Shown here in pieces: positions 7,900 to 63,900 of a DNA stretch of 64,000 nucleotides (its first letter is position 1; the number at the start of each line of letters is the position of its first letter). Source of the stretch: Candidatus Omnitrophota bacterium (GTDB lineage: Bacteria; Omnitrophota; Gorgyraeia; Zapsychrales; Zapsychraceae). The notes beneath the pieces were generated by a model. The model saw only the letters and a program-made list of their open reading frames with translations, did no database searches and was not told the origin of the DNA. The stretch is from positions 14,495 to 78,494 of the forward strand of contig JAGOSC010000003.1 of assembly GCA_018062515.1 (NCBI GenBank), read 5' to 3'. The translations under genes and the position numbers were made by a program.

Positions 7900-7904
7900 C
7901 TTCT

Positions 7905-8306: not shown

Positions 8307-8307
8307 C

Positions 8308-10625: not shown

Positions 10626-10631
10626 ATTCTT

Positions 10632-12808: not shown

Positions 12809-12926
12809 ATTTTTCCTTTGTGAAACAAGTATAACACGGCCAAATACGCAAAAATAATTAAGATTAAAAATTGTTGGTTTAGTTTGAATCAACGCTGAAA
12901 TTAAGGAAAGGATTATCTGGAAATTG

Positions 12927-14012: not shown

Positions 14013-14430
14013 ACTCTACGCCTCAACTGTTTGATCTGATAATTTCAGATTTTCATCTACGGAATAATAATCACAAGAAATTAATACCAAAAAATGATCC
14101 ATCCACATGTTGACCTCCTAGCGACGGTTCATTCAACTGACCATCGCATTGCGTTGAAAGTATAACACGCCCTCTTTTGTTGACAAGATAGGCGCCTTCA
14201 CTTTCTTTCGACGAGGATCACTTTCAGTAGTTTTCCACAGTTTGGTCATTTTTGAAATTGTCGTAACTCCTTAATTTTGTGTTTATCTTGACTCGAATAA
14301 AAATAAAAACCCGATTAATGAGCATGTGCTTATAAATAAAAAATATTTTTATCCCCTCCTTTTTTTCCTCTCTTTGAAGACAAAGTCAAACTATTGCGTG
14401 TTCCATTGATTTATGATATAAAACCTTTCT

Positions 14431-18802: not shown

Positions 18803-18955
18803 TTTAAAAATTAATCTCGAATATCGAAGTCCGAAATACGAAACAATTTCTAATTTCCGAATAATTAAACAGGTCAAAAACGTTTTAAACATTAAAACAT
18901 TCTGATTTGAGTTATTGTTTCAAATTTCGATATTCGGATTTCGAAATTTCTTTAA
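18803..18955. terminator. Convergent intergenic spacer rich in TTCGAAAT/CGAATATCGAA palindromic words; candidate bidirectional terminator
   Basis: cgaatatcgaa (18818-18828) is complementary to ttcgatattcg (18925-18935), and tttcgaaa palindromes are present. It lies between the mutL stop and the giant-gene stop. Confidence 0.3.
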
Positions 18956-42900: not shown

Positions 42901-45900
42901 TTTTCTTGGTCACGTGAATTTTTCGTCCGTCATTCAACCGGCGAATTTTCGCTGGCATTAATTTATTTTTGTCATTCGTGTAATAATCAATACTGTTTTC
43001 AATAACATCATGGAGAATGTCTACGGCCACAGCGACAGGGTTTGATATCAGGAACCAGTTAACTGACATACTAGCAACACTGTGAAGATGTGAAGTATAA
43101 TCCGTTCCGACTACATCTTTTCTGACATCGCCTTCGTGATGGTCTTTAACAATTTCGTTTAAACCTTCAACATATTTTCTAGTTAAACCGGTATTGAGCT
43201 GTCCTAGGCCAATAAAATTATCTGGATCAAACACGTGTACTCCATAAATCTTCTTAAAGATTTCTGAAAAAATATCTTCAGCGGAGCCGGCCTTAAATTG
43301 TTTATAGAATTGTCTTTCTACGGCCGGTTGTTGTGATGCGTCTTTAATATTTTCAACAACACTTGATTTAATCATAGGCTCATTACGTTTTGATAAAATT
43401 TTCCAAATGGCAAAACCAGCCGCGCCAACAGCCAACGCGCTAACAGCCACCCAGCCCCAAACTGGCATTGAAACCAATATAACTGGAGTGAAAGCGATCA
43501 ACGCGTCGACGACGATAATACTTGATCCAGCTTCATAAACATTTTTAATCGTTTTATTAAATACCGCGACAATGCCCTTACGACCAATGTTTTCGATTCC
43601 CCAATCGTTAACTTTAGTTACAAAAGAACGAAGGGCATTGTCGGCGGTAATATTTGAGATGTTGGATTGAAGATACTTTGAAGATTTGATCCTGGCAAAT
43701 GTAAGAACAGCGACGATGAATATCATCTTTATGACAATCGGGCTGATTATAAATACAACACCGGCTGTTAAAATTATTGCTCCTAAATCATTGGATTTAG
43801 TACCGCGCTCTTCAATTCTATTGAACAATATATTTTCTAAGAATGTTTTAGCTTTACCCGTTACGCTGGCAACTAATCGTGCCTTAGTGACTTTAGTTGT
43901 ATTGACATTTTGTATAAATCGATTAGCTAATATGTTTTGTTCTTTTTTGCTTAAACGGTTAAATAAACGATTTACCGCAGCCCAATGAGCGGCTGGTATA
44001 GCATTTATTCCTTGTTTTCCGTCGTGAACTGGCTGTATGTCGCCTTTAACGGTATATAAAGCTAAGCCGAACATTTCGCTGATTAAGGTTTCACTTAATT
44101 GTTTTGACGTTAAATCAGCCTTCATTGTATGGCTGATGGCTTTAATGTTTCCGGTGTTGATGGACGTTTCAAAGATTTGTTGAACAGTAGCTTTCGTGCG
44201 GAATTGTTGTAATGGAGTAGTGATAAAGACAAACGTATGGGCGTTTAGTTTTCTTTCAGCGGATAATATTTTGCGGTAATTTTCGAAATTTTGTTTTGTA
44301 TTGGTTGATTCATTCTCGAGGATAACATTTTTACCTTCGGTTAAAGTGATATTTTTGAATTCAACTTCAGTAGCGATCATTTGATTCATCACTTGCAAGA
44401 TGATTTGCGCTTCGCTGATCTTCACTTTTCCTGCGCTTAAAGCTGAACTTAATTCAGCCAAATCAGCCGCTGAACTGATAATCTTTCCGGCGACTTCGAC
44501 CGTGTAACCAGCTTCAAGGGCTTTGATGATCAACGGCATGGTTAATCGTCCATATCCGCCGAGAATAACAATACGTTTGGCGTTTGCTGCTTCATAAACT
44601 CTCAAGGTGTGTCGAATCATATCGATATCATCATTTCCAGCGAAAACAACATCGTCGACGGATTCTTGACTTAATTGTTCCATGGTCATATCAGATTGGC
44701 TGAGGCCTTCAGCCAATTGTTCTTTAGCTTCAGCGGCCAATTTGGCTTGACGTTGGAAGTACAAGCGGGCAGCTAACCAAGCGGCCAGTGATAAGGCAAC
44801 GATACCGGCGATGACAGTCGCATAAGCGCTGAACAATACAACAGCGACTATCCCCGGAGCCAAATCATTCATTTTCTTGGTATTCTTGGTATCTTTAACA
44901 TTCTTATGATTGGATACAGTCAATTTATTATTAAACAATCGTTTGGCTTCATTGAATAAATAATACAAGGATCCTAATATCCAGGTGATGAAAAAGACGC
45001 CAGTAATGGTAACCGGTAAGAAATAAATCAAAGCTGTTGCGGATTCTGTGACGGCCAACCCAATACCGAACCCTAACATAAGTAATTCATAGAATATAAG
45101 CGCTAAACCTTTAAAATATAATCCTCCCTTATTCTTTCTCAAATCTTTCTTAATGGCTTTTGTTAATTCTTGTTTTTCAGAATATATCGTGTTCTTATCA
45201 GCTTTAGCTATTTTAAAGAGTTGTTTGGTGATTGCACCTGGAACCCAGATAACATCTAACCAAGATCGGATAATTCCCGTTTTGGTCCATTGTGTATATC
45301 CTTTGAATCCTTTATAACCAGTTGTTCCGGGGAATATGCCCGGCATAGTCAGAATCGGCGCGAAGGCCCATAAGAAAATAGCGGCAATATAGAAGAATGA
45401 CCAAAGAATTGGTAAGGCTTGCCACAAGAAAACACCTAATGAAGATATGAAAATAAAGATAAGTGAGAAGTTTATCTGGAATTGGAATGAATCGGTCGCC
45501 TTAAGTTTATTACCAGCATTATCCATGAATCTATAAATGCGTTCGATGAACTCAAATCTAGCTATGTCCCATCCCTTCTCTGACTGATTAAACTTAGCCT
45601 TTCCGTGCAAACCTTTGAAAATACCAAGCGAATAATTGATGATGTAAGTGATGTAAACCATCATCAAGGCTGGGAACAATCCAAATAAACTTGAAATACT
45701 GCCTTGAATACCTTTGCGATTGAAATTCACATAATGTTTCACTAATGTGATGGCAAGCACGACTGCCGTGGCCAACCCAGTGAAAGGCATAAACGCCATA
45801 CCCAAAAAGGCCGTTAATCCTAAGAAATGCGCGATAAGTGAGGCCAAAATGGTCGTCGGAATAATACCTAAATAATTTACTAATCCGCGCATAATACCTT

Positions 45901-48900
45901 TTTCCTGTTGTGATTGAGCTATACCGCTCATGGTCACCATTTGTGAGAACCATACGCCGACGAAAGCCAAAAATACCGCGAATGGGAAGCCGGCAAAACC
46001 GCTGACACCCAAATAAAGGACGGTGAATATATATGACGGAACCGCTAACATAATGAACGGTTTCTTGGTAAAGAAGCTGATCGTGAAGAAGAGCATCATT
46101 TTTTGATACCAATTAAATTCTTTACTCTTCATTAAGCGGGTTAATTGACGTCCAAGACCTAATTCCGCCCCGCCAGCCGCAAATTTTTGGAACGGAACAG
46201 AACCGCCCGCGACGCTGACCTCGCGACCTTTACCTACCTGTAAATATTCACGGTGAGCGATGTAGTAACCTTTTCTCTTCAACCAAACTTGAATCGCTAA
46301 CATAATGTCTTCGGATACATAATCCGGAGGAAGCGTTCCGAATTCTTTTAATAATTCAGTTCTGAAAAATGCGCCGTGACCATAGAAACCTAATGCCGCA
46401 GACATGGCATTTACACGCATGACAAATGTTGTCCATGTGCGGTCACCGAAACCATGAACCTTACCAATCCAGTTGAACTTATCGGTGATGATATATTCAG
46501 CGACGTTAACCGCCATCAATTGCGGATCATCGTTGAATTCGGCCAAAAGGTTCGGGAATTTCAAGGCGTCTTCGAAGCGAATATCGTTATTAGCATCCAA
46601 GAACAAGTTGATGTCGCCGGTTGAATAGTTCATCATATTGTTTTGATTCATCGGTTTATAGTTTGGATAAATATTCCACTTTGCCGGTGATCCAAATTCT
46701 TTAAACGTTCCTTCTCTTGGATTAAATTTGTACATACTGTGTTCTTCGTCCGTCAAGAAAGCGACTTGAAGCATTGGATATTTACGTAATAAGAATTTAA
46801 GGTCTTCAATCTTACGGCGCTCTTCTTCCTTGTCATGTTTTTCTAATTTTTTGAAACTTTGATATGCCCAAACGATCTGTAATTTTTCAGCGACTTTAAG
46901 ATCGACAGCGGCTTCACTATGAGCAATTTCCGGGAATAATTGTTTAACGATAAAGCGGTAGGCTTCCCAGGCAGTAATGAGGCCCATAATGGTTCGGTAA
47001 AACGGATGGAAACGCATATTGACGAAGTCTTCCACCATTTCCGTAATCTCTTGGACGATTTCGCTATTCATATTTGTTGGGAACATAAACTCTTCTGTAC
47101 CTTCCAAAGCGCGCCATTCTGAAATGGTTGATTCGTCAATATTTTTGCCATATGTAGTAACTAAACGGCTCACAAAATTCTGCCATTCATCCGGCATTTC
47201 CTTAATAATGTGCGTTAACTTGGTTTTACCGACACCGCCCTCTTCTTTATTCAGGTCGGAGAAGTGAACCATAACAACTTCATCATTACCAACGGCGTTG
47301 ATCGTCAATTTCGGTAATCTTGTCCATGCCGGCATGGTTGGCATTCTCATCTTGACGACGCTAGTCATATAGAATTGTAAACGCTCTCTGACTTCTTCAT
47401 TTTTAAAGGTTCTGCTGAAATCATTAATAGCTACGCGTTCTTTTTCTTCTTGATCAATTAAATTCTTTTCGTATAAGTGTTTAGCAATTTCACTGCCTGT
47501 TTTCTTAGCGCCAAAATTTTTATCTAATTTGCTTACAAACGCGTCGGCATTTCTTCTTAACCCGCGGGCTGACGTAATAAAGCCTAATCCATCCATCCAT
47601 CCCTTTATTGAACCAGTGATCCATTGTGTAAAGTTAATAAAGGTAAATGTATCAAGAAAGTAGAACATGATGAATGTTGACCAAATAGCAATCGCTAGTC
47701 CCCAACCGGCAACCATACTTAAAGTATGATCTCCAAAAATATTAGACGTTATAATCTTTAAACTACTAAAGACGAAATCATTCCAAACATACTTAAATCC
47801 AAACGTAACGGCCCAGAAGAATGTACTAAAGGACAACTCTTTAAGAGAGCGTCTAACATAATTCTTTCTCAAATAACTGCTACTTATTCCTTTATCTATT
47901 CTGCTTGCCGTATTTACTATATTTCGGATGTTTTGAATCAAATTCTTAACAACCAAAAAGGCTATAAAAGCAATGGCCGCCCATGTCACAAATACCGGAA
48001 TCACCGCATAAATCGGTCCTAAGATAATGATCAATGTCGCCGGAATGGACAAAACAAATGGCCAGTTATTTTTACTATATTGAACAGCACCTCTAAATCC
48101 GGCAAAGTAAGCTGATGCCGCAATGATTATGCTTACCAGCATGATCGCAACTGAGGTAATAAGCATATTATCCGCCAAACCGTAAAACGCGATAACTCCA
48201 TTTAGGATTAAACCAATTACAACGCCGATGATAATATAAGTTTTGCGTGAGGCATAATTTCCGGATTTATCTTTGTATGTCTTGAATTTCTGAATTTTCT
48301 CTGCAATATTTTTAAAACTTGTACTATCTTTGTGTTTATACAACAATGTACCTAAACGGCCTAATCGTTTGAGTCCTTCCTCAAGTGGTAGTTGATTTCC
48401 TTCATTATCTCTTAGTTGCTTACTCAATAAATCTTTAACAAATTCTCGATTATTCAATTGATCAATCAAATCTTCCCAGGTAATTCTAGATTCTTTTTCC
48501 ATATCACCGACCGCTCCGCGATCATAGAATCTAGTTAAATTGAAGTACCATAGATCAATTTCCTTACCGAAGCGTTCTCCAACTCCTGCAGCCCATTTTT
48601 CTTTATCGTGGATATTACTGTCGATCAACTCTCGCAACATAATGGTATATCTTAATCGCGGCAGAATGGCGCGGATATGTGAACCGCGGGTAAACATAAG
48701 CACAAATAATACATACATTTCAAAATTGAATTTAATATTTTCGGGCAACTTTTGTCCGATTTGTATCATCCAATCATTGAATTCACTGAAATTATCGTCG
48801 AGGAATTTATCAGCGGATCGGTTGGTTCCATATAACATGTCAATGATTTTGTATAAGGCGATATCAACGGTTGGTTTATCAAAACCAAATTTTTCAGCGA

Positions 48901-51900
48901 CCGGCTTGATTTTATTTTCGATGGCGATATAAAAATCTTTCATGGCTTTATCAATCTTATTATTGGATTCAGAAATCTTATCCTTTGAACCGCTTTCCCC
49001 TTTCACCAGCTCTTCTTCTATTTTCGCAAGTTCTTCGGTCTTTATTGTCTCCAAAACTTCTTTCGCTTTCGCAAGATCTTCCTTAGACATGATCTTTTCT
49101 CGAGTAACCATTACTTCCAGCGTATTAATTTCTTCTCCTGACTCATCACGTCGATCACCGATAACATATTTGGTGAAGTCATTGCCATTTTTCTTTCTGC
49201 GTTTGGCTAATAAATTGCCTACTCCATAAGATAGTGGACGGCCAACATAACTCCACAAGAAGAGGATTAATGCGGCGATGCTGATCCATTGCATAATCTT
49301 GAACGAATCACCGTTGAAAATTCGGTCAATAAAGGACGTTTGATCAACATCAAATACTACATCAACGGTTTGATTTTCTTGATCAACCACAGTATGGAAA
49401 GGAATATCGAAACTTTGATTATTCTTAAGTTCCCATTGCTCGTCAAAGGTACGGTCCAATTCGGTTAATTCATCCAATCGTTTCGTGTCGGCAATTTTAC
49501 CGTCTTCATAAATATAACGTCTTACATAAACATTGCCTGAAGCTTGATCTTTTTCGGTGACGATGATCACTTCACGCACAATTTTCTTACCATCAACATC
49601 TTTGATAAAGGTATGAGAACTATTAAAGATAACGCTTAATTTCCAATTTCCATCTCCATTATGTGTCGTATAAGCTCTGACGGGTTTTTCATTCTCGTCG
49701 TAGATAACATATTCAACGCCGGATGTTATAATCGGCGCACCGGCATAACCTTGCGCCACCGGATAGAGAAGTTTATGAAATCCTTTAGCCAATAATTTTC
49801 CGCCCGGAGAACGAATTTGTGTGATTTTGAATTGTGAGTCAAGTACAAGAGATTCATAACCTTCAAGTGTCTTAATCACCTTGCCGGCTTCATCATAATA
49901 TTCAAACTGTACTTTATGCGTAGCATCGCGAGAGATTTTTGCGAACACAGCTCCATATTCACCTGGCCCACGGGTGACTGTAAAGTTTTCAAATTTTTGA
50001 CGGCTATACTCAACGTCTGGTGAACGGAAAACTTCAACTTCGGTTAATTGATGATCTTTTCCGACGACAATAGCGCCAGGCTGGACACCGCTGAACATGC
50101 GTGTTAATGTCGTCAACTCGCCGCCATTGTAGCGGACTTGTAAATCGTAAACTCCTTCAAAGTTCCATAAATTAATTCCTAAATCACCATTGGCGAACAA
50201 TACGGCGATTTTGCGTCCGCGAGCATCATTCGGGATCAGGAATTCATGTGTGGTCGTTGTTTCAACTTCTACCGGCTTTCCATCGACGAATGTTTTCGGT
50301 GTGACGAGAACTTCCGGTAATTTGGTATCCGGATAAATGCGCAACGATTCCATAATCTTCCAGAAGCCGCCTTGTTGCTGAACGCGTTCATATTCAGCCG
50401 GGAAACGTTTAGCTAAAGCTTCCATGTAGGTATTGATGACTTGCGGAGTAAAGAGACGTTTGGCAACCACTGTTCTGTCTTCATGAGGAATTTGCATACT
50501 GCGTCGGTAAATATCATAACGGGCTATTGAGAATGTTTCATTCGTCGCGTCATAGACTTTCAGTGAAAGCTCGCCGAATAATGTTCCGTCAGCTAATTTT
50601 TTAACTTCAAATTTTTCGAATTCTGAATGAGTATAAACAACATTTTCTACAGTACCATTCGGATGTCTGACATCCATACTCATAATACCACCCGTCGCTA
50701 AATAAGGATTTTCTTTGCCGTAGATATATTTGGATCTAATAGCTATGATCATATCCCGATTTTCTCTATCCGGAGTGGCGTCGTTTGCGTCAATTTCTTC
50801 TAACAATATGCCTTCAGCAGAGAAGATTTCGATAATATTTCGATAAATTCCGTCACTTAGTACAAGGGTTTTTGTTCTGGTTAATTCGCTAGTCTTATCA
50901 TTATGAGAATATTGGCCATACTTATATTTAAGAATCCAGCGTTTTGACGTTGTATCGTATTCGTAACCGCGTCCGCCGATTTCTTGACCTTGGGCGTTAT
51001 AGATCGGATAAAATCTTTGATCTTTTCCGTCTTGGGTATGGGTCGTTCGGTAAATAAGCTTTCCGTTGACTGTTTGAATGGTGGTTGATTTTTCTAAGTA
51101 TTCTTTCTTGTCATAATCGTACCATTTTGTTTCTTTAAGGATGACGGTTTCGTTGTACGGATTGAACATTCCGACGATGCTCTTAATTACTTTTCCGTTA
51201 ACCTTGATATCAACTTCTTTAGCTGATTGTTGAGCGCCTCGGCCATATCCGCCTTCGGATTGCGCGCCGGCTTTATTTATTTCATAACCTAAAGCGTTGA
51301 AGGTCATTTTCTTGGATTTTCCGGTTCGATAGTCGGTATAGACGATCGTGACTTTAGCGTCGGTTGGTTCAGCGTCGATGTTGTAATAAATGGTGCGTGT
51401 TCCGGCGATCTTGACTTGATGTGCGGCGAAATATTCAATCACTTCTTCGGTATAAGCTTCCATATCTTCGTAATTGTTGTAACTTCCGGTAAATTTAATT
51501 CCGTTCTTATAGATTTCCGTTGATATTTCGATACCGGTTTTTGGATCGTATGTCGGGATGGTGATAAATTTATCGTTAGCTGCGAAAAAGCGTTTTCCGT
51601 TGCGATAAATTTCAACGCCTTCATTTGTTTTCCATTCCGGATTGATTTTCTGAATAATCAAACTCTTATTGATCGGGAATGTTACCGTCGCTAATACTGT
51701 TTCTTCTTGGCCATCTCCGTCGACATCGATGTCAATTTGGAAGTTGGTGAAATTGCCGTTAACAATATTGAGGCGTTCAATTTCGGATAATGTTTTGATC
51801 TTATCCATGACCTTGTTGAGCATGACCAAATCGTATACCTTATATCCTTGTTCGTGAACATAAGCGTCGCCGAGTTCGATTTCGCCGGATGCTGTTTCTA

Positions 51901-54900
51901 CAATCTTGTTGAATGTAATTCCGCCGCGTCTATAGTTGAACTTATTGCCGTTGACATCGGTATAAATGCCGCCGTTCTTAAGCACATTGAAGCGTCGGGT
52001 ATTTTCCAAGTTTTGTTTTTCACGTTTAACATCTTCTTCCATTTGTTTAAGCCCGGCGATGATAACAATTCTTTCTAAACGTCCATCCTTATGCGCGATG
52101 AGGAATTCCATTTCATTCTTGGAACTGGTGAATTCAATATCCATGCGAAGGGCTTTTAGCTCACGTAAGCGGATCTTTTCATCTTTTGTTAAAGTACGTT
52201 CTTTTTTCGTTTGCTCTAATTGAACCTTTTCCTTCAAATCGTCTTTTAAATTCATATAGTATTCATAGTTTTCTTCGCCGGGCTTCACTTCAGTCTTTTG
52301 CACTTCTTCGAGAGTTAACTTTTTCGCCTTTGAGTTATATTTGGCAAATTCATTAGAAATAATCTTAACTTCTTTACCGATTTCATGAGCGATGCGATTT
52401 AAATCAGCCTTCATTAATATAGTTAAAGCTGTTTCATCCGTACCTTTCTCCTCGTCGGATAATTGATCATAAAGTTGCGCAAACATATTCGTTGGGTCAA
52501 TGATATTTCCGTTAACCTTGACTCTAAAATCAATACCTGCATTGCCGCTGTTTCCAATAATTTCACCAACTTTAATTCGATCGCCGATCATGACATCAGC
52601 ACCAGATAAATCTCCGTACACGATGCTGATTTTATTTCCTTCATAATCGATGGCGGTCTCAACTTCAATTTCAAACTTGCCGTTCTCTTTATCTTGTCCG
52701 ACATGGATGACTTCGCCGGTCATATTTGACGGGATTTCTGTATCGTCGGCGACAGCGATGGTGATTCGGTCATTATCTAATGTGAAACGTCCGTCTTTAT
52801 ACGGGCTATTATGGATAAGTTTAGATCGTAATAAAGCCATTCGAAGCGCTGCGAATTTCTTCACATCAGCTATGACAGTTGGTTTTGTAATTTGATTATT
52901 TTCAATTTTCGTTGTTAAGAAATTATCGCCGGCCACGACGCTGATGAAATATTGAGCGGTTGAGCCTAAGGCTTGATTGCCCACGGCAGTTTTAGATCCA
53001 ATACCGGTTTCAACGCCTTTAAGGGTGGCTTGCGGGAAGCTGCCGTCTTCATTCATCATTAATTCAAGTTGAGGTCGGTATAGTTTGACCCGTTCAATTT
53101 GCACATTAGCCTCGTCGAGTAAACCATATTGTCTGAAATATGGAATGAACATTTTGAATACGCCGATCGCTTGGGCGGTTTCTTTAGTAAATCCTATTCT
53201 TCGTTTACTTTCATCCGTGACGTCATTACGCTTGGTCATGGCGGTCTTCAAGTCAACTAAATCAAACAAGCTGACTTCTTTTCCTTTATACATAACGTTA
53301 ACGCCGAATGTCTCGACGATTTTGTTGAGAAGTTTGGCGAATTCCCGGGCGGCTTGCTCATTGGTCATGCCTTTTGTCTTGATAAAGGTGTCAGCATATT
53401 TTTGTGGGCCCATGGCTTCTATCAATTGCATTTGAACATCCGACGTGAATCCTTCAGCATCTTTTTGATTTTTAAATAATCCGGTTTCTTTATCTCTCAA
53501 GGTTTTAATAAAGCTTAAGCTTCTGCGGCTAGCTTCCCGGGAGTCGTCATCATCATTTTGCTCAGCATAATTATTGAAGAAGGCATATACAATCAAATTG
53601 GTTCTTAAGTCTTCAGCATTAGGAGTAATTCCTCTTTCTGAAAGCGGCAAGATATATTCCGGAAGGACTTTACCAAGTTTCAAATCAGTGTCTCCGAACC
53701 GTTTAACTGTCAGTGTTGTTTTTTGGTCTTGTACATCCAGCATCAAATCTTTAATATCTTCCAACATACGATGATAGCGGTAATCATGCGTGGACTTCTC
53801 ATAAGTCATAATTGCCAAACCAATCGCCGCGGTGGTAGGTACATGCGGATTTCCATGAGGTTCACCGGTATTGACGTCGATATCGCGCGCGAATCCGCTG
53901 AAGGAAACGCCACGGCCTTCGACTTGTTTCTTATAGCTAATATTATAATAATAATTAAGTGTGCGTTTGATGCTCTTGATATCGTTACTGATTAAATTCT
54001 TGATAATATCCTCCGCGTGATCCATACCAGTTCCGATTGAATATGAACCAGGCATTTCTTCGTCATAAGATTTAGGCGTTCCCGTCGGTGTGTTATACGC
54101 GCCAAAATCACTACCCATGTTCGTAGAAACTCCACTTTCTTTCAGCGCGAGCTTCATATTTTCCAAAGTTTCCATTTCTTGATGGATCTTCTTCAACTGA
54201 CTCTTAATTCCGTTGCGGGTAAATATAATCACTCTCTTATGTTCTGTGCCGTCGGCGTCAATGGTTGTTGCCAGTGTGACCGGAACTTGTATGGTACGGC
54301 CTTTGCCGTCGTCGATCTCTACGGATTGCACTGTTTTAAATAGGGCATTATATTGTTCTTGGGTATATGTAACGGCTTTATCATTGAATATGTTTGAGCG
54401 AATATCATAGGCTACAATGTTTTTATTATCTTCAATGCGATTCAAATGCTTGAGAAGATCCTTTTCCCAACCTAAAGTAAATGAATAGAACGGTACACCG
54501 ATACTAAATCTGAGCCCGGTCGGCGCTTCTTTAAATGGATAGCTCAATTTGTTATCACCGAATAGATCGGAAGCCCAATTAATCACGGATCGGCCATCTA
54601 ATCCAATGTTGACCACGTTCAAAATCTTATCGAGATAGGTAGCTTTCTGGGTCAATAAATCGTCGAATCTCTGATAATGAATTTGATGGCCAAGGAATAT
54701 GGATGATAAGGCCTCACCAATATTGACGCTGCCATTATATTTGATAATGCGCTGGCTTAAAATATTGACCAAGGTTGGATTTTTAGGTATGTCATACACT
54801 GGTATAATTTCTGTCCAATATTTTGGATCTATTTTTGGCGTCGATGGATCAACACCATTCAATCCAAACGATGATGGGTTGGTATTAGGATCTTGGAATT

Positions 54901-57900
54901 CTTTAGGTTGAGCGGATTTAATATTTTTCTCGGTGTTCAAACTTTCGGCTGCTCCGAGGAAAGAGGCGGCGTTCGACAATAGCCCCATGATAAAGCCGAT
55001 GTTTCTTTCGGCTGGAAGGCTCTTTAGATAACTAAACATACGCTCAGCATCTTCCGGTGTGAAATCACTTTCTAGTCTTTTCTCGGCTCTTCGTTTGTAT
55101 TCATCCTTGGCGCTCTGTGGAAGGGCGTTCCAACGTTTTGTGAATTCCCGGTCAAATTTATTTTGACTGAGCGTCTTTAAAGTCGGATCATTTTTCAATA
55201 ATTCTTCATTGAATAGGTATTTCTTATAGAACCGTATTTGCTCATTCTTCGTCGGGGCTTTAGGTGCTTTTTCCGGTTGAGTCATCATATCAAATACTAT
55301 TCCAGTCCCTGCCGTTAACAGCTTGAGCGGCGGGAAGAATCCTGTAAAGATATCGGCAAAGCCCGTGAAGAGATTAAAGACGCTTCTTTTCTCTAAAGTC
55401 TTTAACTGCTCTTTCTGTGCTTCTACTCTATTTTCTGCTTGCATCAAGCCCATAATGGCCTCGACTTCCTCGGCCTTATGCGTGTTCATGCCGTAAATAA
55501 TCCAGCTTTGATTGCCTTCTTTATCTTTTTCATCTTCGAATACTGAAATTCTTGGCAAAGGAGTTTGGCTGTATAACTTATTCACTGTTTTACGCCATTG
55601 CCCGTTGACATCCTTAACTTTCGTCACGATGACCGGATGTCCGGCTGATTTGTCTTCAAACTCTCTGGTATCGTCGTCGACCAAGAATTTCACGGCTTCA
55701 CTAATCATGCCGTCTTTGGTATTTACGATGACCGCTGAATATGGGTCTTTGCTTGGCGGCAACATGGCCTTTGAAAATTCAGGCGTTTCGCTGATTAATT
55801 CATCGCGTTCTTCAAGATCTTGGGTCTCTAATATATCTAATAATCGTATCAATACTTGTCGGTCACGAAGAACCGTTTCAGCCTTTTGAAGTTTAAGCTG
55901 CTGAGCTTTTTCACCGGAGCGTAGAATACCGCTGATCGGATTTCCTTGAAGGTCAAAACCTTGAACAACAGCAATCATGTCTTTTCCGAATTCTTCAGCT
56001 TCTCTGATTTGTTCATCGGTTAATTTAACGTAATATGGTGAAGTCGTAATATCTTCAAACGGATGTTTTCCTGCCTCAAGCTTGGCTTTATAAATCGTAA
56101 TGGATGCGTTTTCTTTGAATTTGTCAAATGATGGCTGATCATAGAGTGGCATGACGATCTCGTTGTAAGTATCCGGATTCATTGATATGACAAGATACAT
56201 TGGGCTGTCAGCACCGTTTTGTGTCATCAATTCATCAGCCGCTATTCCGTTGATCGACGCTGTGACGGTTCGTTCCAAAGTCTTTTGATCACCATCAATG
56301 TGAAGATTTTTCAATATTTCTTGGCGTTCTTCATCGCTTTGAGCACCGACGATATCTTTAGAAATTTTATTAAACTCTTTGTATAAATCGATCGTTTCAT
56401 CGTCTTGTTGTTTATCTTGATCGAGAGAAATTACCGGTTTGTATGGCTGGACCTTGATGTCTTTAGCTTCGTCGATCAATGTGCTCAACTCAGGCAATGT
56501 TCTGGCATTTTTCAATTTAATTTGAGCAGATTGTTTGGTGACATCAAAATCGTATCGTTCGGTTAATTTGATTCTTGTATCAATCAATGATTTTGTTTCG
56601 TAATGATTGATTGTTAATGATGTTGGGGCTTTCCCTAATTCTTTAAATTTGGTCGGCATTGGCGGAAGATAATTGTTTACTTCTTCTTTCTCGACGTTAG
56701 CTGGCACTGAAGTAATCGCCTTGAATTCACTCATGTCAGATGAAATTGTTTCATCGGTATCACCAAATTCAGTTTTTGTGGTGCTTTCTTCACTTGATGT
56801 ACCTTCTTCAACGTTCGTATCATTGCTAACAAAACTATGTCGTTGGCCGCCTCGGTGTTGTTTCTTCATAGCCATAAGCTTTTGATCCAATTCGCTCTTT
56901 TCGTAAATGCTCATGACATCAGACACATATTTACGTGTATCTTTGATTTCCGGAATTGAACCAGCAGCATTGTTAACCGCGTCTTCTCCGGCGTGATATG
57001 AGGCTAAAGCAAATTCTTTGCTATCAAATGACTTGAATTGTTTAGCGAATTGATATGAGCCAGCCAAAACGTTGATCGCTGGATCAAAAATGTCTGATTC
57101 TTTCCAATCCATCTTCAATTCTTGTGCAATTTTCATAAATTGTTCCGGAGTAATTTGCATTAATCCTCGGGCATTATTTTCAGTAGAGATTTTGTTTGGA
57201 TCAAAACCGCTTTCCTTAATAATGATCGCTTGAATCATTTGTCTGAAACTATCGCCATTTTTGAATTGCTTATTGAGGTTAAGGTCATCCATGTCAAAGA
57301 CCTTGTTAATGGAGCTTGAAATCTCAGCGTTTAAGCTCATTAAATCTGAAGACATAACCGTGTATTTAGCTAACATTTCAGTCACTACGTTTCTGTCGAA
57401 GTTTTCAGCTGGATTTGGTCCGACACCGTCTTTATGGAATTTTTCCATAGTAGACTTGGCCCAAGAAGGCATAACATTTGGCTGATCAGCATTAAACCAT
57501 TGACGTGAACCCATATCCAAGTGAAGTTGAGTCTTATAGAATCCAACCCCTTTAAATCCAGCTTGTAAGCCCATTTCCAAGAACAAGGCTTTTTCTTGAT
57601 CAGTTAAGGATTGTGTTTGGAAGTCAAATGCTCGGCCGGTATGATGTTCTTTTCCATCAACGCCTTCTGTATCTGTAGTTAATCTTGTTCCACTGCGATG
57701 TTCATCTTTGCCGTCTGGACCTTCATGATTAATTTGAACGAACTTGCCGCTCACCGTTGTAAACGCTCGGCCTAATTCATCGGCGGTCAAGGCAGCATGC
57801 GCATCAACGTCTGTTCCCGGCGCCGTCATGTCGGAAAGATCATAATGTTCAAGGTCATTATTTGAAGCCGTCCATTTACCTTCAACTGAATGCTGAAGCA

Positions 57901-60900
57901 TGTTATTAAATAAACCTACCTGGGTGGTGTATCCAGTCTTTGGTGATGGATTTTGAGGAATTGTATCGCTGCCGACGAAAAGGCTTAATGATCCAAATAC
58001 AATCGGAAGAAGATAAACAGGTAGAAGAAGTTTTTTCAGAGGCTTTTCAATGGATCTTAGCGCTGTCATGATCTTTTTGAAGCTAAATTTCTCAAAGAAT
58101 TTAATCGCTATTATTACGGCAAAAACAATACTAGCGACCATATATAGAGAAATTACAGCCCACTGTAATGGTCCGATATTATTCGCAGCCGTATCTTGAG
58201 CCATGGCCATTCCTGGTAACATGGTTACGGCGGCCAATACAGCTGCGAATTTCAATGTTTTCTTAAATAATGCGGAGACAGCGTCAGTTGTAGTTATTAC
58301 GATTCCCCAACCGTTGTTAACTTTAGTTTCTAAAGAACGACTGTCGCTGTCTCCGATATTATTAGTTGAGATTTCGGTAGATACTCTTGGTTGAATACTG
58401 AGGAACTTCACCGCTTTCCAAAGCATGCTGGACAAGCCGGCGAACACTTTTTTGACCAACGAGGTCAAGTTCATTCCAAGTGTCGGTAAGGCCATTTTTA
58501 CTGTAGATATGGTCCATTGTGTTGGTAATGAGATATAACCTGATTTTGTTGGTTGTGGTTTCACGGCAGCTGGCAATGAAACATTGACTTTGAGGGATTT
58601 GAACAAAATGCGTAATCTTAATGCTGGGTTTAGTGTTAAGAACGACCATTTCGCACCTCCGGAAATAGTAAAGGCTTGTTTGAAAATACGTACAAAAGTA
58701 CGTAATCCAAACAAGCCTTTATTTTGGTTGATGATCTTAGATTGAGTTTTTACTTGAGATGACGGTCCTCGGATTTGGCCATATTTGACTGACAATAAGG
58801 CTATGAGAACCAAAGATACAGCAATAGCGATAAGCCCGATGATAACTGGGCTTACGGATGTGGTACCGGCAAAAGCAATAATACTACCGGCATAGCGTAG
58901 GTTGGATGATCTACCAATAGACAAAGTCTCAGATTCGCGTACCGTATCAGTTTTATCTTCTACCGGCACACCTGAGGCTTTTCGATTTCTCTTATTAAGT
59001 AGATTTTCTGAGCGCGCAATTCTTGAATCTTGCTCAGTATATAAGCGAACAAAGCTTACATCATTAACGTTCTTTCTGCCTTTGGCGGCGTACTCAGAGC
59101 TAATGACTTTGCTTTGACTTATTTCTTCTTTAATTGTAGATACTGTTTCGTTCACAGTACCAGAACTGAATCCGCTCTTGTCGTTTCGAGCAGGATTTGT
59201 AAAACGAGTATTCTTGATTTGCTCTATAGCCTTAGCTACTCGCACCCCAAGAATTTCACTCTCCCCATTTACATTGCTGTAAGCGGATCGAATGGCTTCA
59301 ACCAATCTTCCGATTAGGTTGATGTTTTTTCCAATAATGTCTGCAGCATCTTTCGATCCTACAGTGTTGCCAGTAACAGCTTTCACTGCTACAAGAACTA
59401 ATCCAAAGCCCAATGCTTCAGATGAAACTACTGTGTAACCTACTTCTTCTTTACTACCATCTTCTCTATTTACATAGAGACGCACTCCAACAACTTTGTC
59501 CTTTCCAACTTCATTACTGAAGAGGGATTGAACTGCTTCTTCAGCCAATCTTCCGATTAAGCTGACAACTACTTCTACAATAATGTCTGTATCGGCTTTC
59601 GCTTCTACAGTGTTTCCAGTAATAGCTTTCACTATTACAAGAACTAATCCGAAGCCCAATGCTCCAGATAAAACTTTTTCGGTCGTTAAACCAGCTTTAG
59701 TTTCTTCAGCTTTATTTCCTACAACTGTGTAACCATTTACTTCTTTATTACCATCTTGTGTAAGACGTACTACAACAACTTTGCTCTCTCTAACTTCATT
59801 ACTGAAGTCGGATTGAACCGCTTCTTCAGCCAATCTTCCGATTAAGCTGATAACTACTTCTACAATAATGTCTGTATTGGCTTTCGCTTCTACAGTCGTG
59901 CTAGCAATAGATTGCTCTATCGCATGAGCTGATCCGGAAACTAATTTTCCAGATAAAGTTTCTTCAGCCTTACGGCTAGCTGTAACTTCATTAGCTTTTC
60001 CGGATTCTTCAACAACCTCATCCGATTCGGTTTTTGCTTCACTTGCTTGTCCGTGCGCTTTCGCACCAGAACCACTACTTCTACTATAATTGGTACCATT
60101 TTCAGCTAAGACTAACTGAACTAGTACTTCATACTGTTCTTGAATCTTTCGAACATTCATCAAGAATTCTTGAACAGGTCCTGCTTTGACTTTTCGAACT
60201 TCTACAACATTTACTACGATTGCTGTATTTTCTTTCTTTTCAGTGTTGCCACTGGTTTTGCCTTCTTTAGTTGTACCTACAGCAGATACGACTTTAGAAC
60301 CTTCGGCTTGTTCATTTACTACTTTGTTACTTGCTTCTTTACTTCTATCTCCTTCACTTACGTGAACAAGATATACTACTTCAACTTCATTCTTTCTGTC
60401 TGCGTTTCCGTAAACGAATCGAACTGCTTCAGCCAATCTTTCGATTAAGCTGATTACTTCTTGTTTTACGTTGTTTCTAACTCGAGCAACTGATAAAACT
60501 GCTGCTAGAACTAATCCGAAACCTAATGTTTCAGATGAAGTTTTTTCAGCCTTGCGGCCAGCTTTAACTTCGTCAGCTTTATTACCTACTTCTTTGTTAC
60601 TTACTTCAACTTCTTCTACAGTATTTAAAACATTTACAACTTTAATAATTACTTCGTTTGTCCGCGCTACTAGCATTTGCACTGCCTGGCCTATTGCGGA
60701 ATAGGCGGCAGCTAAGAATGCTGTCGGGCTAAGGCCAGAAGTAAGGCCCCGGGTCCTTGATTCTATTGATATTGCAACTAACCATGATTTACTTGCTTTT
60801 AATTCTTCTGAAATCTGTGGACCTACCTTAATATAGGCCTTGGATGGTCCAAACTCGTTTTGATATTTGACCATAGCAATCTTGGTCTTATTTCCACCAT

Positions 60901-63900
60901 TCGAACCTGTTCCGCCAGCACCACCTGAAGGCGATGGTTCGGCGGTAGGCAATTCTGCTGGGGTCGAAGGAACAACCGGTAAGACTGCATTTTGTTGTCG
61001 GCCGCGACCAGGTATGGCTGATTGATTTTGATCTGGATAATCGGAGGTATCTGCTTTGGCAAAACTATAGCCCATTTCAAAGAGATAATCTTGGGCGGTT
61101 TCTAAAATCTTAGGAGCCTGGCTTAACAACATACTTGGTATGTTGATAGTTGTCAGCGGAATATTAGGAATGACCGGTGTGGCCGGCATAATAACGTTTG
61201 GAACTGGGCTAGGCGCCACTGGTTGATTTGGAGTAGCTCGATCTAACCCTTCTTGACCATCAATTTCGGCATCTTGGGAATGCAATCTTGCTTTAAATTT
61301 ATTCTTATCTTCTGTAAGTTCATTATTCTCAGATATTTCTGAACCTTCAGGCGGTCCACGATCGGTAAGTTGTTTTGCTTCCTCAGCCGGCGTTAATTGA
61401 TCAGATTCTAACTTGATGTTGCCTTGGAGCTGATCATTCATCAAATTCATAATTCCACTCGGCGGAATATTTCCAGGCTGATACATAGCCGGAATATTGA
61501 GCTTATCTTGAGTTACAGTAGCATCGATGTATTCTTTAGCTGAGGTTTGATTAGCTATAGCGGAGATAGTAATAGCGCCCGCAATAAATAACTTACCGGC
61601 CCAGCTGCGTAATCGGGCAAACTTTGTTTTTTCACTGACTTTTTCTTTATTTACGGTTGAAGTTTTAGGCGTATCAAGCTGCGCTATTTCAAACATTTTA
61701 CTATTAAACTGTTTCATAGCCGCCTTAATCGGTGCTTCGCGCTGATCAGATGAGAGATTTTCAACCATTCCATTGGCTTTTAACTGCATTTCAGAAACAA
61801 TGGCAAAGGCTAACTCAGAGGTTTCAAACCGAATACCCTTGTTTAAATTCTCACTATTAAGATCTTCAGCCAATTTATCCATCAAATTGGATAATAATTT
61901 AAATTTATTTTGATCAATCGATTTTGTCTTATATTTCCCTGCTTCGTCTTTTTCTAGTAGAAATGTGAAAACTGAGAATAGAACTTGGGCTGTTTCCAGG
62001 GAGAATTTATTGCTTTCATCCTCAAATGTACGGGCAAAATAATCTAAGACAAAGTTCATAACATTCTTGTCTTCAAAGACGGATGAATTAATAGTCAGTG
62101 TTTTTCCATCTTCACTCTTCACTGGAAGAAGCGGGCTGTCACGTTCAATGCTGATAGTCTTGAAAGCCGCTAAAGCCTTGGCTAACTTTTCACTATATGT
62201 AACAGCTTGTTGCAATTTAACAACCGTTTTGATCCTTGTTTCCGCATCCGTACTTTCATTTTCCACGACCACCGGCACATTCCCATCCGGCCCTTGATGA
62301 ATGAGGATTTCGGACTTCTGCAATATTTCGTCTTTGTGATCATTCACCACTTTTTCAAATTCTTCTTTACTTAACGCGTGAACAAGTGATTTTAACCACG
62401 TGTTTCCTAACACTTTCCATATCCTGGCCGACTCCATGGTGGCCTGCCGCATATTATTGGCAATAAATTCCTCTGAGCTTTGAGAATCATCCGGTAAAGC
62501 TTTCCAATAGTCGGCTAATACCAACAATTCATCCGCATTATCGATCGCATCCGAAAGGGTCAATTCGATACCTGAATTCTTCCATATCTTCATAATATCC
62601 GTCATTCGAGGTAGCGCTGAACGGACGGTGGCAAGTCTCGTGTTAAATTCTTCCTGCGTAAAATCAATGCGTCCGGAAATTAGCCTTAATGAATCATTTA
62701 AGACTTGATCAACCTTTTGCTGTGAGGCATTGTCTTCAAGTAAAGCCAGAAGATTTTCTTCCTCTTGAGTTCTCTTTTTCTTGTTTTGCAAATCTGTCTT
62801 GACCGGCTCCAGCATTTCAGCTGAACTTATATTAATAAGGGAAGGCAGGTCCTTTTCCAATTGAGGCCGTAAATGAACATCCACAAAATCGGCACCCAAA
62901 CTCTTCTTCAATTCTTGATACTCAAAGTTTTCTTTATCAGAGGCTAAAAGATTATTAATCGTTTTTAACTGTTTCTTATAAAGCGCTTCTTCTTTCTTGA
63001 GTTTTTTCTCTGCTAATTCAGTCAGCTCAAAACCACTGACAAAGGCATGTTTCATTAATTCTGCGGTCAGCGTGAGGGTTAATTTTTCACGGTCTTCCAT
63101 ATCGGCCGACGGATCAGCTGCCAGACGATTTGCCCTTATGATCGGCGATTCAATCATGGCAATAAAAATATTAACCGGCAATTTGGCTAATACCTCAGTG
63201 TTCATATTAGCTTCAATAAATTTATTGATCTTGACCGCCAATTCCATTTGGTTCAAGTCGGCTGATAATTTGAATATTTCCAGCGCTTTAACCATTTCAA
63301 TCGGGGTTAAGCGACTTTCGACTTCATTCTTATTAAGGGTAGTGATCAGCGTTTGAATATCCGCAACCGTCAGTTCTTTGGTTTTCTTTAAGATTTGTTG
63401 AACCAATGAATCCTGTGATTTTTGTAATTTTCTCACAGCTTTATTCAATGATTTTATTGAAGCATCCGTCATGAAACCTAAACGAATGACATCTTTAATC
63501 ATATAACTATATTTTTTCCATTGCGCGGGGATCTTTTTACCATAAGGCATTTTGGCGATGTCTTCATCTTTCAAAGATTCACGCCGTTCATGTTCCAATT
63601 CAAGCGCTAAGAATTTCGTTCTCTTGGCTTCATCCGCCTCAGATAATAGCCGATCTCTGATTCGTAAGATTTCATTTTGCTTTCCTTGTATCGCTTCCGT
63701 AGTATCATTAAGCGTATGAATCAAGGTCACTAATTCCTCAATATTCACATGTCCTTTAAAGGCACCCTCAGCTACATCGCTAACCAAATAATCAAAGAAC
63801 GGCAATATGGTCGGTTGGGATTCAATCTTTTTAACGAGCGTTTTAAGAGATTCTATGTTTTTGTCAAAGCCCAATCCAATTAAGACCCGAATATATCCAA

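What the first reader, a model, noticed from the sequence alone, without database searches (positions are those of the whole stretch)
52480..57900. Peptidoglycan-hydrolase modules in the N-proximal third: M15-like peptidase, SLT lytic transglycosylase, and an M23-like domain lacking the second His motif
The SLT (ES...GLMQI...AYHAG) and M15 (SGxR...HxxGxAxD...HxD) motifs look intact. The M23-like domain keeps HxxxD but not HxH, like non-catalytic EnvC/NlpD-type LytM domains that act as hydrolase activators. Wall-cutting and wall-sensing modules on a giant envelope protein fit either remodelling of the cell's own wall or attack on another cell's wall.
Basis: partly seen in the sequence, partly recalled or inferred. 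Interest (0 to 1): 0.7.

Follow-up and report, generated by a model that had tools for sequence, protein, structure and literature searches.

The report
Wall-cutting modules in Omnitrophota giant protein
A 15,000-residue membrane protein of an uncultured Omnitrophota bacterium has two apparently working wall-cutting enzymes and one inactivated one in a large loop outside the cytoplasmic membrane; this is a useful but fairly ordinary annotation of an already described class of giant genes.

Summary
All three modules are real. They lie in one minus-strand ORF of at least 15,010 aa (window 18956-63988).

- **SLT:** clear match (Pfam E=4e-21), with the Glu-Ser, GLMQ and SYHAG motifs intact.
- **M15-like domain:** no Pfam hit. 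An exhaustive search gives 268 relatives. Of 46 scanned, 45 match Peptidase_M15_2 and 39 match Peptidase_M15_3. All invariant residues are kept (H2115, D2122, H2156, D2158, R2162). Its AlphaFold model best matches the Streptomyces Zn DD-peptidase.
- **M23 domain:** All five conserved metal or catalytic residues are lost.

Homologous Omnitrophota-type proteins carry the same trio as M15, active M23, SLT.

Hydropathy and the positive-inside rule place aa 2006-4897 outside the cytoplasmic membrane, with M15 and SLT directly after a transmembrane hairpin.

**Best reading (inferred):** an inner-membrane-tethered kit that opens the cell's own wall, like TagX, with a dead LytM domain for docking or regulation. 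**Main rival:** attack on prey walls. The nearest other M15 relatives are podophage internal virion proteins.

Giant Omnitrophota proteins with SLT domains are already published, so this is a new member of a known kind.

The parts
18956..63988 (-). Giant ORF of at least 15,010 aa that holds all the modules; polytopic membrane protein
   Evidence: ORF list, translation and about 40 hydrophobic segments. Other Pfam domains in it: Glucan_synthase, DUF218, ACT, alpha-amylase, GH77, CBM48/GlgB, PALP.
58199..58255 (-). Signal-peptide-like hydrophobic segment, aa 1912-1930, ending in AMA|QDTAA
   Evidence: Hydropathy. The motif is conserved in homologue P0001 ('STAMAQDTAA') in the BLASTP alignment.
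57974..58159 (-). Transmembrane hairpin: TM aa 1944-1962, K/R-rich cytoplasmic loop aa 1963-1986, TM aa 1987-2005
   Evidence: Kyte-Doolittle peaks of 2.74 and 2.25. The loop sequence 'KFFEKFSFKKIMTALRSIEKPLKK' is lysine/arginine-rich. By the positive-inside rule, residues from 2006 onward are outside.
57428..57874 (-). M15A-type (LAS, Hedgehog/DD-peptidase fold) zinc peptidase domain, aa 2039-2187; SGTR 2099-2102, H2115, D2122, H2156, D2158, R2162
   Evidence: No direct Pfam hit.
56861..57403 (-). Family-1 SLT lytic transglycosylase domain, aa 2196-2376 (Pfam core aa 2249-2343 = 56960-57244); E2259-S2260, GLMQ 2275-2278, SYHAG 2330-2334
   Evidence: Pfam E=4e-21. BLASTP to the SLT of P0001, E=3e-18. 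Alignment to MltE and Slt70.
52886..56860 (-). 1,325-aa spacer (aa 2377-3701) with no recognisable domain, no Cys and no TM helix
   Evidence: No Pfam, NCBIfam or PDB sequence hits. No counterpart in P0001, where M15, M23 and SLT are packed together.
52358..52885 (-). Degenerate LytM (M23) domain plus C-terminal helices, aa 3702-3877 (Pfam core aa 3742-3832 = 52493-52765); catalytic positions are N3739, T3743, D3793, a deletion, and D3820
49298..52357 (-). Remaining 1,020 aa of the extracytoplasmic loop (aa 3878-4897), no recognisable domain
49241..49297 (-). TM helix aa 4898-4916 that closes the loop, followed by the positively charged 'RPLSYGVGNLLAKRRKK'

Best explanation
Shown: the region is the membrane-proximal part of a ~2,900-residue loop (aa 2006-4897) of a polytopic inner-membrane protein of at least 15,010 aa from an Omnitrophota bacterium; the extracytoplasmic placement of the loop is predicted from hydropathy and charge rather than measured. 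Directly after a transmembrane hairpin come an M15A/LAS zinc peptidase domain and a family-1 SLT lytic transglycosylase. Both keep the residues that are invariant in their families. About 1,325 residues further on lies a LytM (M23) domain that keeps the fold but has lost all five metal-binding or catalytic residues.

Inferred: the peptidase cuts peptide stems or cross-links and the transglycosylase cuts glycan strands of the producer's own sacculus. Because both are tethered to the outer face of the cytoplasmic membrane, they would act locally. This would open the gap through which the enormous extracytoplasmic part of the giant protein is threaded and assembled. The same job is done by TagX for the type VI secretion system, and (from my own knowledge, not checked here) by VirB1- or EtgA-type enzymes for other envelope-spanning machines.

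The dead LytM domain would then act as a peptidoglycan- or hydrolase-docking module, as in EnvC, NlpD, DipM, Csd2 or SpoIIQ. It may position or stimulate the SLT or M15 domain, or a separate amidase. The cassette shares ancestry with the wall-piercing internal virion proteins of podophages.
For: - Domain identities: SLT; M15; degenerate LytM.
- Topology: there is no hydrophobic segment between aa 2006 and 4897, and K/R-rich stretches lie on the far side of both bounding TM helices. With the same parity, the Glucan_synthase catalytic region (aa ~5452-5977) comes out cytoplasmic, as expected for a glycosyltransferase.
- Tether: M15 starts about 20-35 residues after TM 1987-2005. The TM-anchor-plus-M15 arrangement is conserved at 34% identity over 566 aligned columns in P0001 (E=4e-74). 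P0001 has TM helices only upstream of the module.
- Precedent: TagX is an inner-membrane LAS peptidase with two TM helices and a positive-inside loop. It has phage-endolysin ancestry and is required for T6SS transit through the producer's own wall (PMC5061870).
- Precedent for the dead domain: the inactive LytM domain of DipM binds and stimulates an SLT-type transglycosylase and AmiC (PMC10336132).
- The organism makes peptidoglycan: MurI and an Amidase_3 enzyme are in the window, and Omnitrophota carry complete peptidoglycan synthesis (10.64898/2026.06.07.730766).
Against: - No experiment supports any of this, and the topology comes from hydropathy and charge only.
- In the homologues P0001 and P0002 the M23 domain is intact (E=3e-24). 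The ancestral trio therefore looks like a full lytic toolkit, which fits attack as well as space-making.
- The nearest non-Omnitrophota M15 relatives are phage virion proteins that breach a foreign wall.
- Omnitrophota are reported to be predatory or epibiotic, and peptides of the giant protein of V. archaeovorus increase in attached cells (PMC10066038).
- The M15 domain lacks the near-invariant Ser (K2113) and escapes Pfam, so it may have reduced or altered activity.
- A domain tethered this close to the membrane might not reach the sacculus.
Confidence: 0.5

Rival explanations
1. Prey-wall attack. The loop, or a proteolytic fragment of it, reaches the cell surface. M15 and SLT then digest the murein of an attached bacterial host, as phage ejection proteins or secreted lytic effectors do. 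The dead LytM domain serves as a wall-binding adhesin.
For: - The M15 domain is 40-50% identical to that of ~1,000-aa SLT-M15 proteins. These sit next to tail tubular proteins in ~45-kb podovirus-like contigs and match PHROG families annotated as endolysin, lytic tail protein and internal virion protein.
- M23 domains also occur in phage ejectosomes (9k2v).
- The literature proposes that Omnitrophota giant proteins mediate prey adhesion and wall digestion, and notes SLT domains in them (10.1101/2023.11.21.568195; PMC10066038).
- A secretin and a pilin-like gene lie in the window.
- The relatives keep an active M23 domain.
Against: - M15 and SLT sit immediately after a TM hairpin. Even cleavage at the conserved AMA|QD site would leave them membrane-anchored.
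- No outer-membrane translocation signal or adhesin domain was found in the loop.
- The one cultured relative preys on archaea, whose cell walls (from my own knowledge) lack murein.
- In the NJ tree the Omnitrophota clade is sister to the phage clade, not nested in it, so recent capture from a phage is not shown.
Confidence: 0.3
2. Nutrient processing. The periplasmic hydrolases trim imported wall fragments from hosts, or turnover products, feeding the sugar-metabolising domains elsewhere in the same giant protein.
For: - The same polypeptide carries GH77, GlgB-like, alpha-amylase and glucan-synthase domains.
- West-Roberts et al. speculate that wall degradation products are converted to storage glycans.
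Against: - SLT enzymes act on polymeric glycan strands (from my own knowledge).
- No muropeptide permease, NagZ, AmpD-type or anhydro-MurNAc kinase domain was seen in the ORF.
- The glycogen-type domains act on alpha-glucans, not amino sugars.
Confidence: 0.08
3. Decaying relics. The cassette was inherited or captured once and is now losing function, with M23 already dead and M15 drifting. The segment would then serve only as a spacer in the giant protein.
For: - All M23 catalytic residues are lost.
- M15 has lost Ser, Pro and Asn residues typical of the family and is invisible to Pfam.
- The domain order is rearranged and a 1,325-aa insertion is present compared with P0001.
Against: - Every invariant M15 residue and all SLT motifs are kept.
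- The structural Gly, Tyr and Pro residues of the LytM fold are retained, and the model of its core is confident.
- A 45-kb reading frame is kept open.
Confidence: 0.07
4. Mobile-element protein. The ORF, or this part of it, is a phage tape-measure protein or a 'polyvalent' protein of a prophage or conjugative element, not a cellular envelope protein.
For: - M15, SLT and M23 combinations are typical of such proteins.
- Single M15 relatives (one each among the 47 sequences scanned) carry LPD38 or LPD22 polyvalent-protein domains.
- The SLT domain weakly matches a tape measure protein (9b45).
Against: - The ORF has dozens of TM helices and metabolic domains.
- Its GC content equals that of the flanks.
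- The neighbours are housekeeping genes: mutS, mutL, queCDEF, murI.
- Only weak, domain-level matches were found in phage and plasmid collections.
Confidence: 0.03

Closest known systems
Omnitrophota giant proteins: 'Archaeovorin' or multi-enzyme class (West-Roberts et al. 2023, bioRxiv 10.1101/2023.11.21.568195; bioRxiv 10.64898/2026.06.07.730766; Seymour et al. 2023, PMC10066038)
   Same: An ORF longer than 10,000 aa with many TM helices and a mosaic of glycan-metabolism and peptidase domains. An SLT domain is already noted as 'less common' in this class. T2SS-like genes lie nearby. The window's MutS is 58% identical to that of an Omnitrophota MAG.
   Different: No SecA-DEAD, C39, HEAT, GT5 or dockerin Pfam hit was found here. 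In the passages I searched (terms M15, M23, transglycosylase, peptidoglycan), neither paper mentions an M15 or M23 domain. The N-terminus may be cut by the window edge.
P0001 (ENA ERZ28655987 scaffold_536) and P0002 (MBZ0165397.1, Candidatus Omnitrophota bacterium): TM-anchor, M15, M23, SLT proteins
   Same: The TM region plus M15 is collinear at 34% identity, E=4e-74. The SLT (E=3e-18) and M23 (E=8e-13) domains are homologous. The upstream ORF is also homologous to giant-protein aa 765-1545, and only a run of N separates the two ORFs in the scaffold.
   Different: In these proteins the order is M15, M23, SLT within about 600 aa, and M23 is catalytically intact (HxxxD, YAHL, HxH). In the window the order is M15, SLT, a 1,325-aa insert, then a dead M23. 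The source genome is 52% GC against 39-41% here.
TagX of the Acinetobacter type VI secretion system (PMC5061870)
   Same: An inner-membrane protein with two TM helices, a positive-inside loop and a periplasmic LAS-family zinc peptidase of phage ancestry. It opens the producer's own peptidoglycan for a large envelope-spanning assembly.
   Different: TagX has a VanY-type domain (PF13539), not an M15_2 or M15_3-type domain. It is a small stand-alone protein without SLT or LytM partners. No homology beyond the shared LAS fold was tested.
Podophage internal virion (ejection) proteins with SLT plus M15 domains, e.g. L082 ORF 8636-11866
   Same: The M15 domain is 40-50% identical, and it is paired with an SLT domain in one polypeptide that must cross a murein layer.
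   Different: The order is SLT then M15. These proteins have no TM helices, are about 1,000 aa long, and are encoded next to tail tubular genes. In the NJ tree they form a clade separate from the Omnitrophota sequences.
Catalytically inactive LytM factors: EnvC, NlpD, DipM, Csd2, SpoIIQ
   Same: An M23 fold with the metal ligands replaced. DipM's dead LytM domain binds and stimulates an SLT-type transglycosylase and AmiC.
   Different: No Pfam match to a LysM, coiled-coil or FtsX-binding accessory domain at the thresholds used. The domain is embedded in a giant polytopic protein. No partner binding is shown. It clearly derives from an active M23 domain of the same cassette, not from the EnvC or NlpD lineages.

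Membership tests
Peptidase M15A-type (Pfam Peptidase_M15_2/DUF882 and Peptidase_M15_3; LAS zinc peptidases) | Match to the family HMM above the curated threshold | tested here: not met
   No Pfam family at E<=10 for the isolated 169-aa segment, and none at E<=0.1 in 1,000-aa chunks.
Peptidase M15A-type (Pfam Peptidase_M15_2/DUF882 and Peptidase_M15_3; LAS zinc peptidases) | Significant sequence homology to proteins that are themselves family members | tested here: met
   268 hits at E<=1e-3, the best at 4.7e-30, in 1.8e9 representative proteins. Of 46 scanned, 45 match M15_2 and 39 match M15_3.
Peptidase M15A-type (Pfam Peptidase_M15_2/DUF882 and Peptidase_M15_3; LAS zinc peptidases) | Metal-binding and catalytic motifs: SGxR, H-x6-D (HxxGxAxD), HxD | tested here: met
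   SGTR 2099-2102, H2115, D2122, H2156, D2158 and R2162 coincide with columns invariant in 46/46 relatives. Exception: the Ser found in 45/46 is K2113.
Peptidase M15A-type (Pfam Peptidase_M15_2/DUF882 and Peptidase_M15_3; LAS zinc peptidases) | Hedgehog/DD-peptidase fold | tested here: met
   AF2 model with pLDDT 85 and pTM 0.84. Foldseek best hit is 1lbu (E=6e-4, prob 1.0), then Hedgehog N-domains, MepA and VldE. Phage 'Peptidase M15A' models match at E=1e-7.
Peptidase M15A-type (Pfam Peptidase_M15_2/DUF882 and Peptidase_M15_3; LAS zinc peptidases) | Zinc-dependent cleavage of peptidoglycan peptides | not testable with these tools
   Needs the purified domain and muropeptide analysis.
SLT family-1 lytic transglycosylase (PF01464) | HMM match above the gathering score | tested here: met
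   75.2 bits against a cutoff of 21.3, E=4e-21. Repeated with offset chunks, 74.9 bits.
SLT family-1 lytic transglycosylase (PF01464) | Catalytic Glu-Ser, GLMQ and AYNxG-type motifs | tested here: met
   E2259-S2260, GLMQ 2275-2278 and SYHAG 2330-2334. The Glu-Ser aligns with the 'IES' motif of MltE and Slt70.
Peptidase M23 / LytM domain (PF01551) | HMM match above the gathering score, and the LytM fold | tested here: met
   34.7 bits against a cutoff of 28.7. AF2 core pLDDT is ~90. Foldseek matches LytU, Csd1/2, lysostaphin and LytM at E=1e-6 to 1e-5.
Peptidase M23 / LytM domain (PF01551) | Active site: HxxxD, the His of 'YaHL', and HxH | tested here: not met
   The family residues H, D, H, H, H (54-58 of 58 members) correspond to N3739, T3743, D3793, a deletion and D3820. 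This is therefore not an active M23 peptidase.
Hydrolase-activating LytM factors (EnvC, NlpD, DipM type) | Degenerate active site with the LytM fold retained | tested here: met
Hydrolase-activating LytM factors (EnvC, NlpD, DipM type) | Accessory targeting domains (coiled coil with FtsX binding, or LysM) | tested here: not met
   No LysM or EnvC-type Pfam or NCBIfam match anywhere in the loop.
Hydrolase-activating LytM factors (EnvC, NlpD, DipM type) | Binding to and stimulation of an amidase or transglycosylase through the LytM groove | not testable with these tools
   Needs complex modelling or biochemistry. An Amidase_3 gene exists at window 4494-5576, but no link to it was shown.
Omnitrophota giant membrane proteins (West-Roberts et al. 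2023) | Very long ORF with numerous transmembrane regions in an Omnitrophota genome | tested here: met
   At least 15,010 aa and about 40 hydrophobic segments. MutS is 58% identical to Omnitrophota MAG246, against ~43% or less (39-44%) for every other listed locus. Note that 15,010 aa is below the paper's >30,000-aa 'giant' set but within the >=10-kAA class of the 2026 preprint.
Omnitrophota giant membrane proteins (West-Roberts et al. 2023) | Divergent SecA-DEAD domain ('most') and an N-terminal C39 or S8 peptidase | tested here: not met
   No such Pfam hit at E<=0.1 (aa 1-15,010) or E<=0.01 (offset re-scan of aa 501-6500). The N-terminus may lie outside the window.

The most novel reading that the evidence does not exclude
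The TM-anchor, M15, SLT and (d)LytM cassette is a cellular counterpart of the podophage ejectosome. It would be a wall-piercing device shared between phages and Omnitrophota giant proteins, which the bacterium keeps anchored in its own membrane and pushes through its envelope to breach the murein of an attached bacterial host. In this lineage the former M23 endopeptidase would have been converted into a built-in regulator or docking module for the two remaining enzymes.
Probability: 0.2. Interest if true: 0.7.

Novelty: new member of a known kind. Interest (0 to 1): 0.4.

Why it matters
Giant Omnitrophota proteins are abundant, but their functions are almost entirely unknown. This segment offers three small domains that can be expressed, with clear predictions. 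There are two putatively active enzymes with named catalytic residues and one dead domain that has an active orthologue for comparison. Together they would make the question 'does the giant protein cut murein, and whose?' directly testable. The work also shows that Pfam-only surveys of these proteins miss real enzymatic domains, here the M15 domain. Beyond that, the finding is an expected kind of domain content for this protein class.

Tried and rejected
- **Word-indexed homologue searches.** Searches with the whole finding region and with the M23 region returned nothing. This reflects the limited sensitivity of the index: P0001 is in that collection and was found only by the exhaustive search.
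- **Exact 49-mer in genome contigs.** No match, so the source genome is not a GTDB representative. An earlier guessed DNA pattern was simply wrong.
- **Synteny with L001.** L001 is the closest MutS locus, but it has no giant gene next to mutS/mutL, so no syntenic comparison was possible.
- **Metagenome scan with the Omnitrophota-type M15 alignment.** It returned only phage-type loci, not further giant ORFs.
- **Spacer segments.** PDB sequence searches of the spacers (aa 2377-3701 and 3878-4897) found nothing. Offset Pfam chunks found nothing, and NCBIfam found nothing useful. A self-BLAST found no internal repeats.
- **PDB search with the SLT segment.** It first gave spurious hits to designed repeat proteins.
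- **Phage and plasmid collections.** Only weak single-domain matches were found, which argues against a mobile-element origin of the locus.
Rejected as the catalytic HxxxD because of its position in the alignment.

Full report
**Where the finding lies.** The window holds one minus-strand ORF, 18956-63988, of 15,010 codons. There is no stop codon in the 12 nt between its first listed start codon and the window edge, so the true N-terminus may lie outside the window. The finding (52480-57900) corresponds to aa ~2030-3836. GC content is uniform (0.36-0.42) across the ORF and its flanks.

The flanking genes are ordinary bacterial ones: rdgB, rph, queFECD, murI, an Amidase_3 amidase, a secretin, a pilin-like gene, mutS and mutL. 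MutS is 58% identical to that of a Candidatus Omnitrophota MAG and 39-44% identical to every other listed locus. An exact 49-mer from the window is absent from the GTDB representative genomes. The window therefore comes from an unrepresented Omnitrophota bacterium.

**SLT.** Pfam PF01464 matches aa 2249-2343 at E=4e-21, and the match is reproduced with offset chunks. E2259-S2260, GLMQ (2275-2278) and SYHAG (2330-2334) are present. The Glu-Ser aligns with the 'IES' motif of MltE and Slt70.

**M15.** Pfam gives no hit, even at E<=10 on the isolated segment. The best PDB sequence match is Sonic hedgehog at E=0.61. Stronger evidence comes from four other results:
- An exhaustive phmmer search of 1.8 billion representative proteins gave 268 hits at E<=1e-3, the best at 4.7e-30.
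- Of 46 relatives scanned, 45 match Peptidase_M15_2 (DUF882) and 39 match Peptidase_M15_3.
- Every column that is invariant in the family is kept in the window: H2115, G2118, A2120, D2122, G2144, G2149, H2156, D2158 and R2162.
- An AlphaFold2 model (pLDDT 85, pTM 0.84) best matches the Streptomyces albus Zn DD-peptidase 1lbu (prob 1.0), followed by Hedgehog N-domains, MepA and VldE. In the viral library it matches phage 'Peptidase M15A' proteins.

The domain does deviate at three typical positions: S to K2113, N to T2107 and P to T2104. This probably explains the Pfam miss, and it is a caveat on activity.

**M23.** The isolated domain scores 34.7 bits against a cutoff of 28.7. Its model has a core pLDDT of ~90 and matches LytU, Csd1/Csd2, lysostaphin, LytM, EnvC, SpoIIQ and DipM.

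In a 58-member alignment, the family residues correspond to the following in the window:

| Family residue | Frequency | Window |
|---|---|---|
| H | 57/58 | N3739 |
| D | 58/58 | T3743 |
| H | 54/58 | D3793 |
| H | 58/58 | deleted |
| H | 55/58 | D3820 |

The structural residues G3758, G3770, Y3791, G3802, G3815, G3818 and P3832 are kept. The domain is therefore a fully degenerate LytM fold.

**Relatives.** The two best M15 hits carry the same trio, tightly packed as M15, M23, SLT, and their M23 domain is intact (E=3e-24). They are P0001 (2,280 aa, from an ENA metagenome) and P0002 (MBZ0165397.1, annotated Candidatus Omnitrophota).

BLASTP shows collinear homology between these proteins and the window's giant protein:
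- The ORF upstream of P0001 matches giant aa 765-1545.
- P0001 aa 190-717 matches giant aa 1672-2187, which is the TM region plus M15 (34% identity, E=4e-74).
- The SLT of P0001 matches aa 2196-2376.
- The M23 of P0001 matches aa 3702-3877 (29% identity, E=8e-13).

The two ORFs in that scaffold are separated by a run of N, so they are probably one longer gene. The window version is thus a rearranged derivative of the same cassette: M15, SLT, a 1,325-aa insert, then a dead M23.

Other M15 relatives fall into two further architectures. The first is a set of 1,500-1,800-aa proteins that begin with M15 then SLT. The second, much larger, is a set of ~1,000-aa proteins with SLT then M15. These match PHROG families annotated as endolysin, lytic tail protein and internal virion protein. 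They sit beside tail tubular genes in ~45-kb podovirus-like contigs. In an NJ tree the Omnitrophota sequences form their own clade, sister to the phage clade rather than nested in it.

**Topology.** Hydropathy finds TM segments at aa 1439, 1516, 1715, 1912, 1944 and 1987, and then none until aa 4898. The loop between TM 1944-1962 and TM 1987-2005 is lysine/arginine-rich ('KFFEKFSFKKIMTALRSIEKPLKK'), and TM 4898-4916 is followed by 'AKRRKK'. By the positive-inside rule, aa 2006-4897 is extracytoplasmic. With the same parity, the Glucan_synthase catalytic region falls in the cytoplasm, as expected.

M15 begins about 20-35 residues after the membrane, and SLT follows directly. P0001 has TM helices only upstream of its module, so the membrane tether is conserved. 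No other domain is detectable in the rest of the loop.

**Mechanism.** What is shown is two wall hydrolase domains with intact catalytic motifs, plus one dead LytM domain, in a large loop that the hydropathy and charge analysis places outside the cytoplasmic membrane; M15 and SLT sit right next to a TM hairpin.

The explanation I favour (confidence 0.5) is local opening or remodelling of the producer's own sacculus, so that the huge extracytoplasmic part can be assembled. This follows TagX, an inner-membrane LAS peptidase with two TM helices and phage ancestry that is required for T6SS transit through the producer's own wall (PMC5061870). The dead LytM domain would act as a docking or regulatory module, as in DipM, whose inactive LytM domain stimulates an SLT-type transglycosylase and AmiC (PMC10336132).

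The main rival (0.3) is attack on a host's murein. It is supported by the kinship with phage ejection proteins, by the active M23 in relatives, and by published proposals for Omnitrophota giant proteins. Minor rivals are nutrient processing (0.08), decaying relics (0.07) and a mobile-element protein (0.03). The weak matches in phage and plasmid collections argue against the last one.

**Comparison with what is known, and novelty.** Giant, TM-rich, multi-enzyme proteins are described for Omnitrophota. West-Roberts et al. already list SLT as a less common domain and propose wall degradation. A 2026 preprint catalogues 916 proteins of >=10 kAA, including a 'multi-enzyme metabolic' class. In the passages I searched for the terms M15 and M23, neither paper mentions these domains.

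What is new here is modest:
- a cryptic M15A domain;
- evidence that the LytM domain is a dead derivative of an active M23 in a conserved cassette;
- the placement of the cassette next to the membrane;
- the link to podophage virion proteins.

I rate this a new member of a known kind, with interest 0.4.

Noticed in passing
window 45146-46660 (- strand; giant ORF aa ~5777-6281): Pfam Glucan_synthase PF02364, the eukaryotic FKS/GT48-type 1,3-beta-glucan synthase, matches at E=7e-29 over profile positions 273-744 of 819. The match is embedded among many TM helices. This is an unusual domain for a bacterium and deserves its own look.
   Followed up: partly
window 29498-34759 (- strand; aa ~9744-11497): Glycogen-type enzymes are fused in the same polypeptide: alpha-amylase, GH77 4-alpha-glucanotransferase (E=2e-162), and CBM48 plus a GlgB-like branching enzyme, followed by a PALP fragment. 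ACT and DUF218 domains occur elsewhere in the ORF.
   Followed up: no
window 58199-58255 (aa 1912-1930) and ~61535-61606 (aa ~795-818), - strand: Internal signal-peptide-like segments end in AxA motifs: '...LPGMAMA|QDTAA' and '...IANQTSA|KEY'. Both are conserved in the L081 homologues ('STAMA|QDTAA' and 'PEAMA|QNE'). They may be signal-peptidase processing sites inside the giant protein.
   Followed up: no
window 59354-59674 (- strand; aa 1439-1545): There are two copies of a TM-like repeat, 'ALGFGLVLV.VKA.TGNTV', each preceded by 'GYTVV'. The homologous region of the L081 upstream ORF also aligns twice.
   Followed up: no
L081 9900-9908: A run of N separates the 3,279-aa ORF from P0001 (2,280 aa). 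The two are probably one gene of more than 5,500 aa split by a scaffold gap, and gene callers missed the upstream ORF entirely.
   Followed up: partly
window 4494-7048 and 12368-12892 (- strand): An Amidase_3 peptidoglycan amidase lies next to a secretin, and a pilin-like gene with an N-methylation motif lies 6 kb from the 3' end of the giant gene. This echoes the published association of giant genes with T2SS-like genes.
   Followed up: partly
L082 (Ga0182226_1000008) 2513-19450: This is a podovirus-like structural module: tail tubular proteins (phrog_394 and phrog_376), a 1,076-aa SLT-M15 internal virion or endolysin protein, a 2,141-aa protein matching phrog_9880, and a further endolysin-like ORF. 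Five of the nine contigs found are about 45-46 kb long, which may be the complete genome length.
   Followed up: partly
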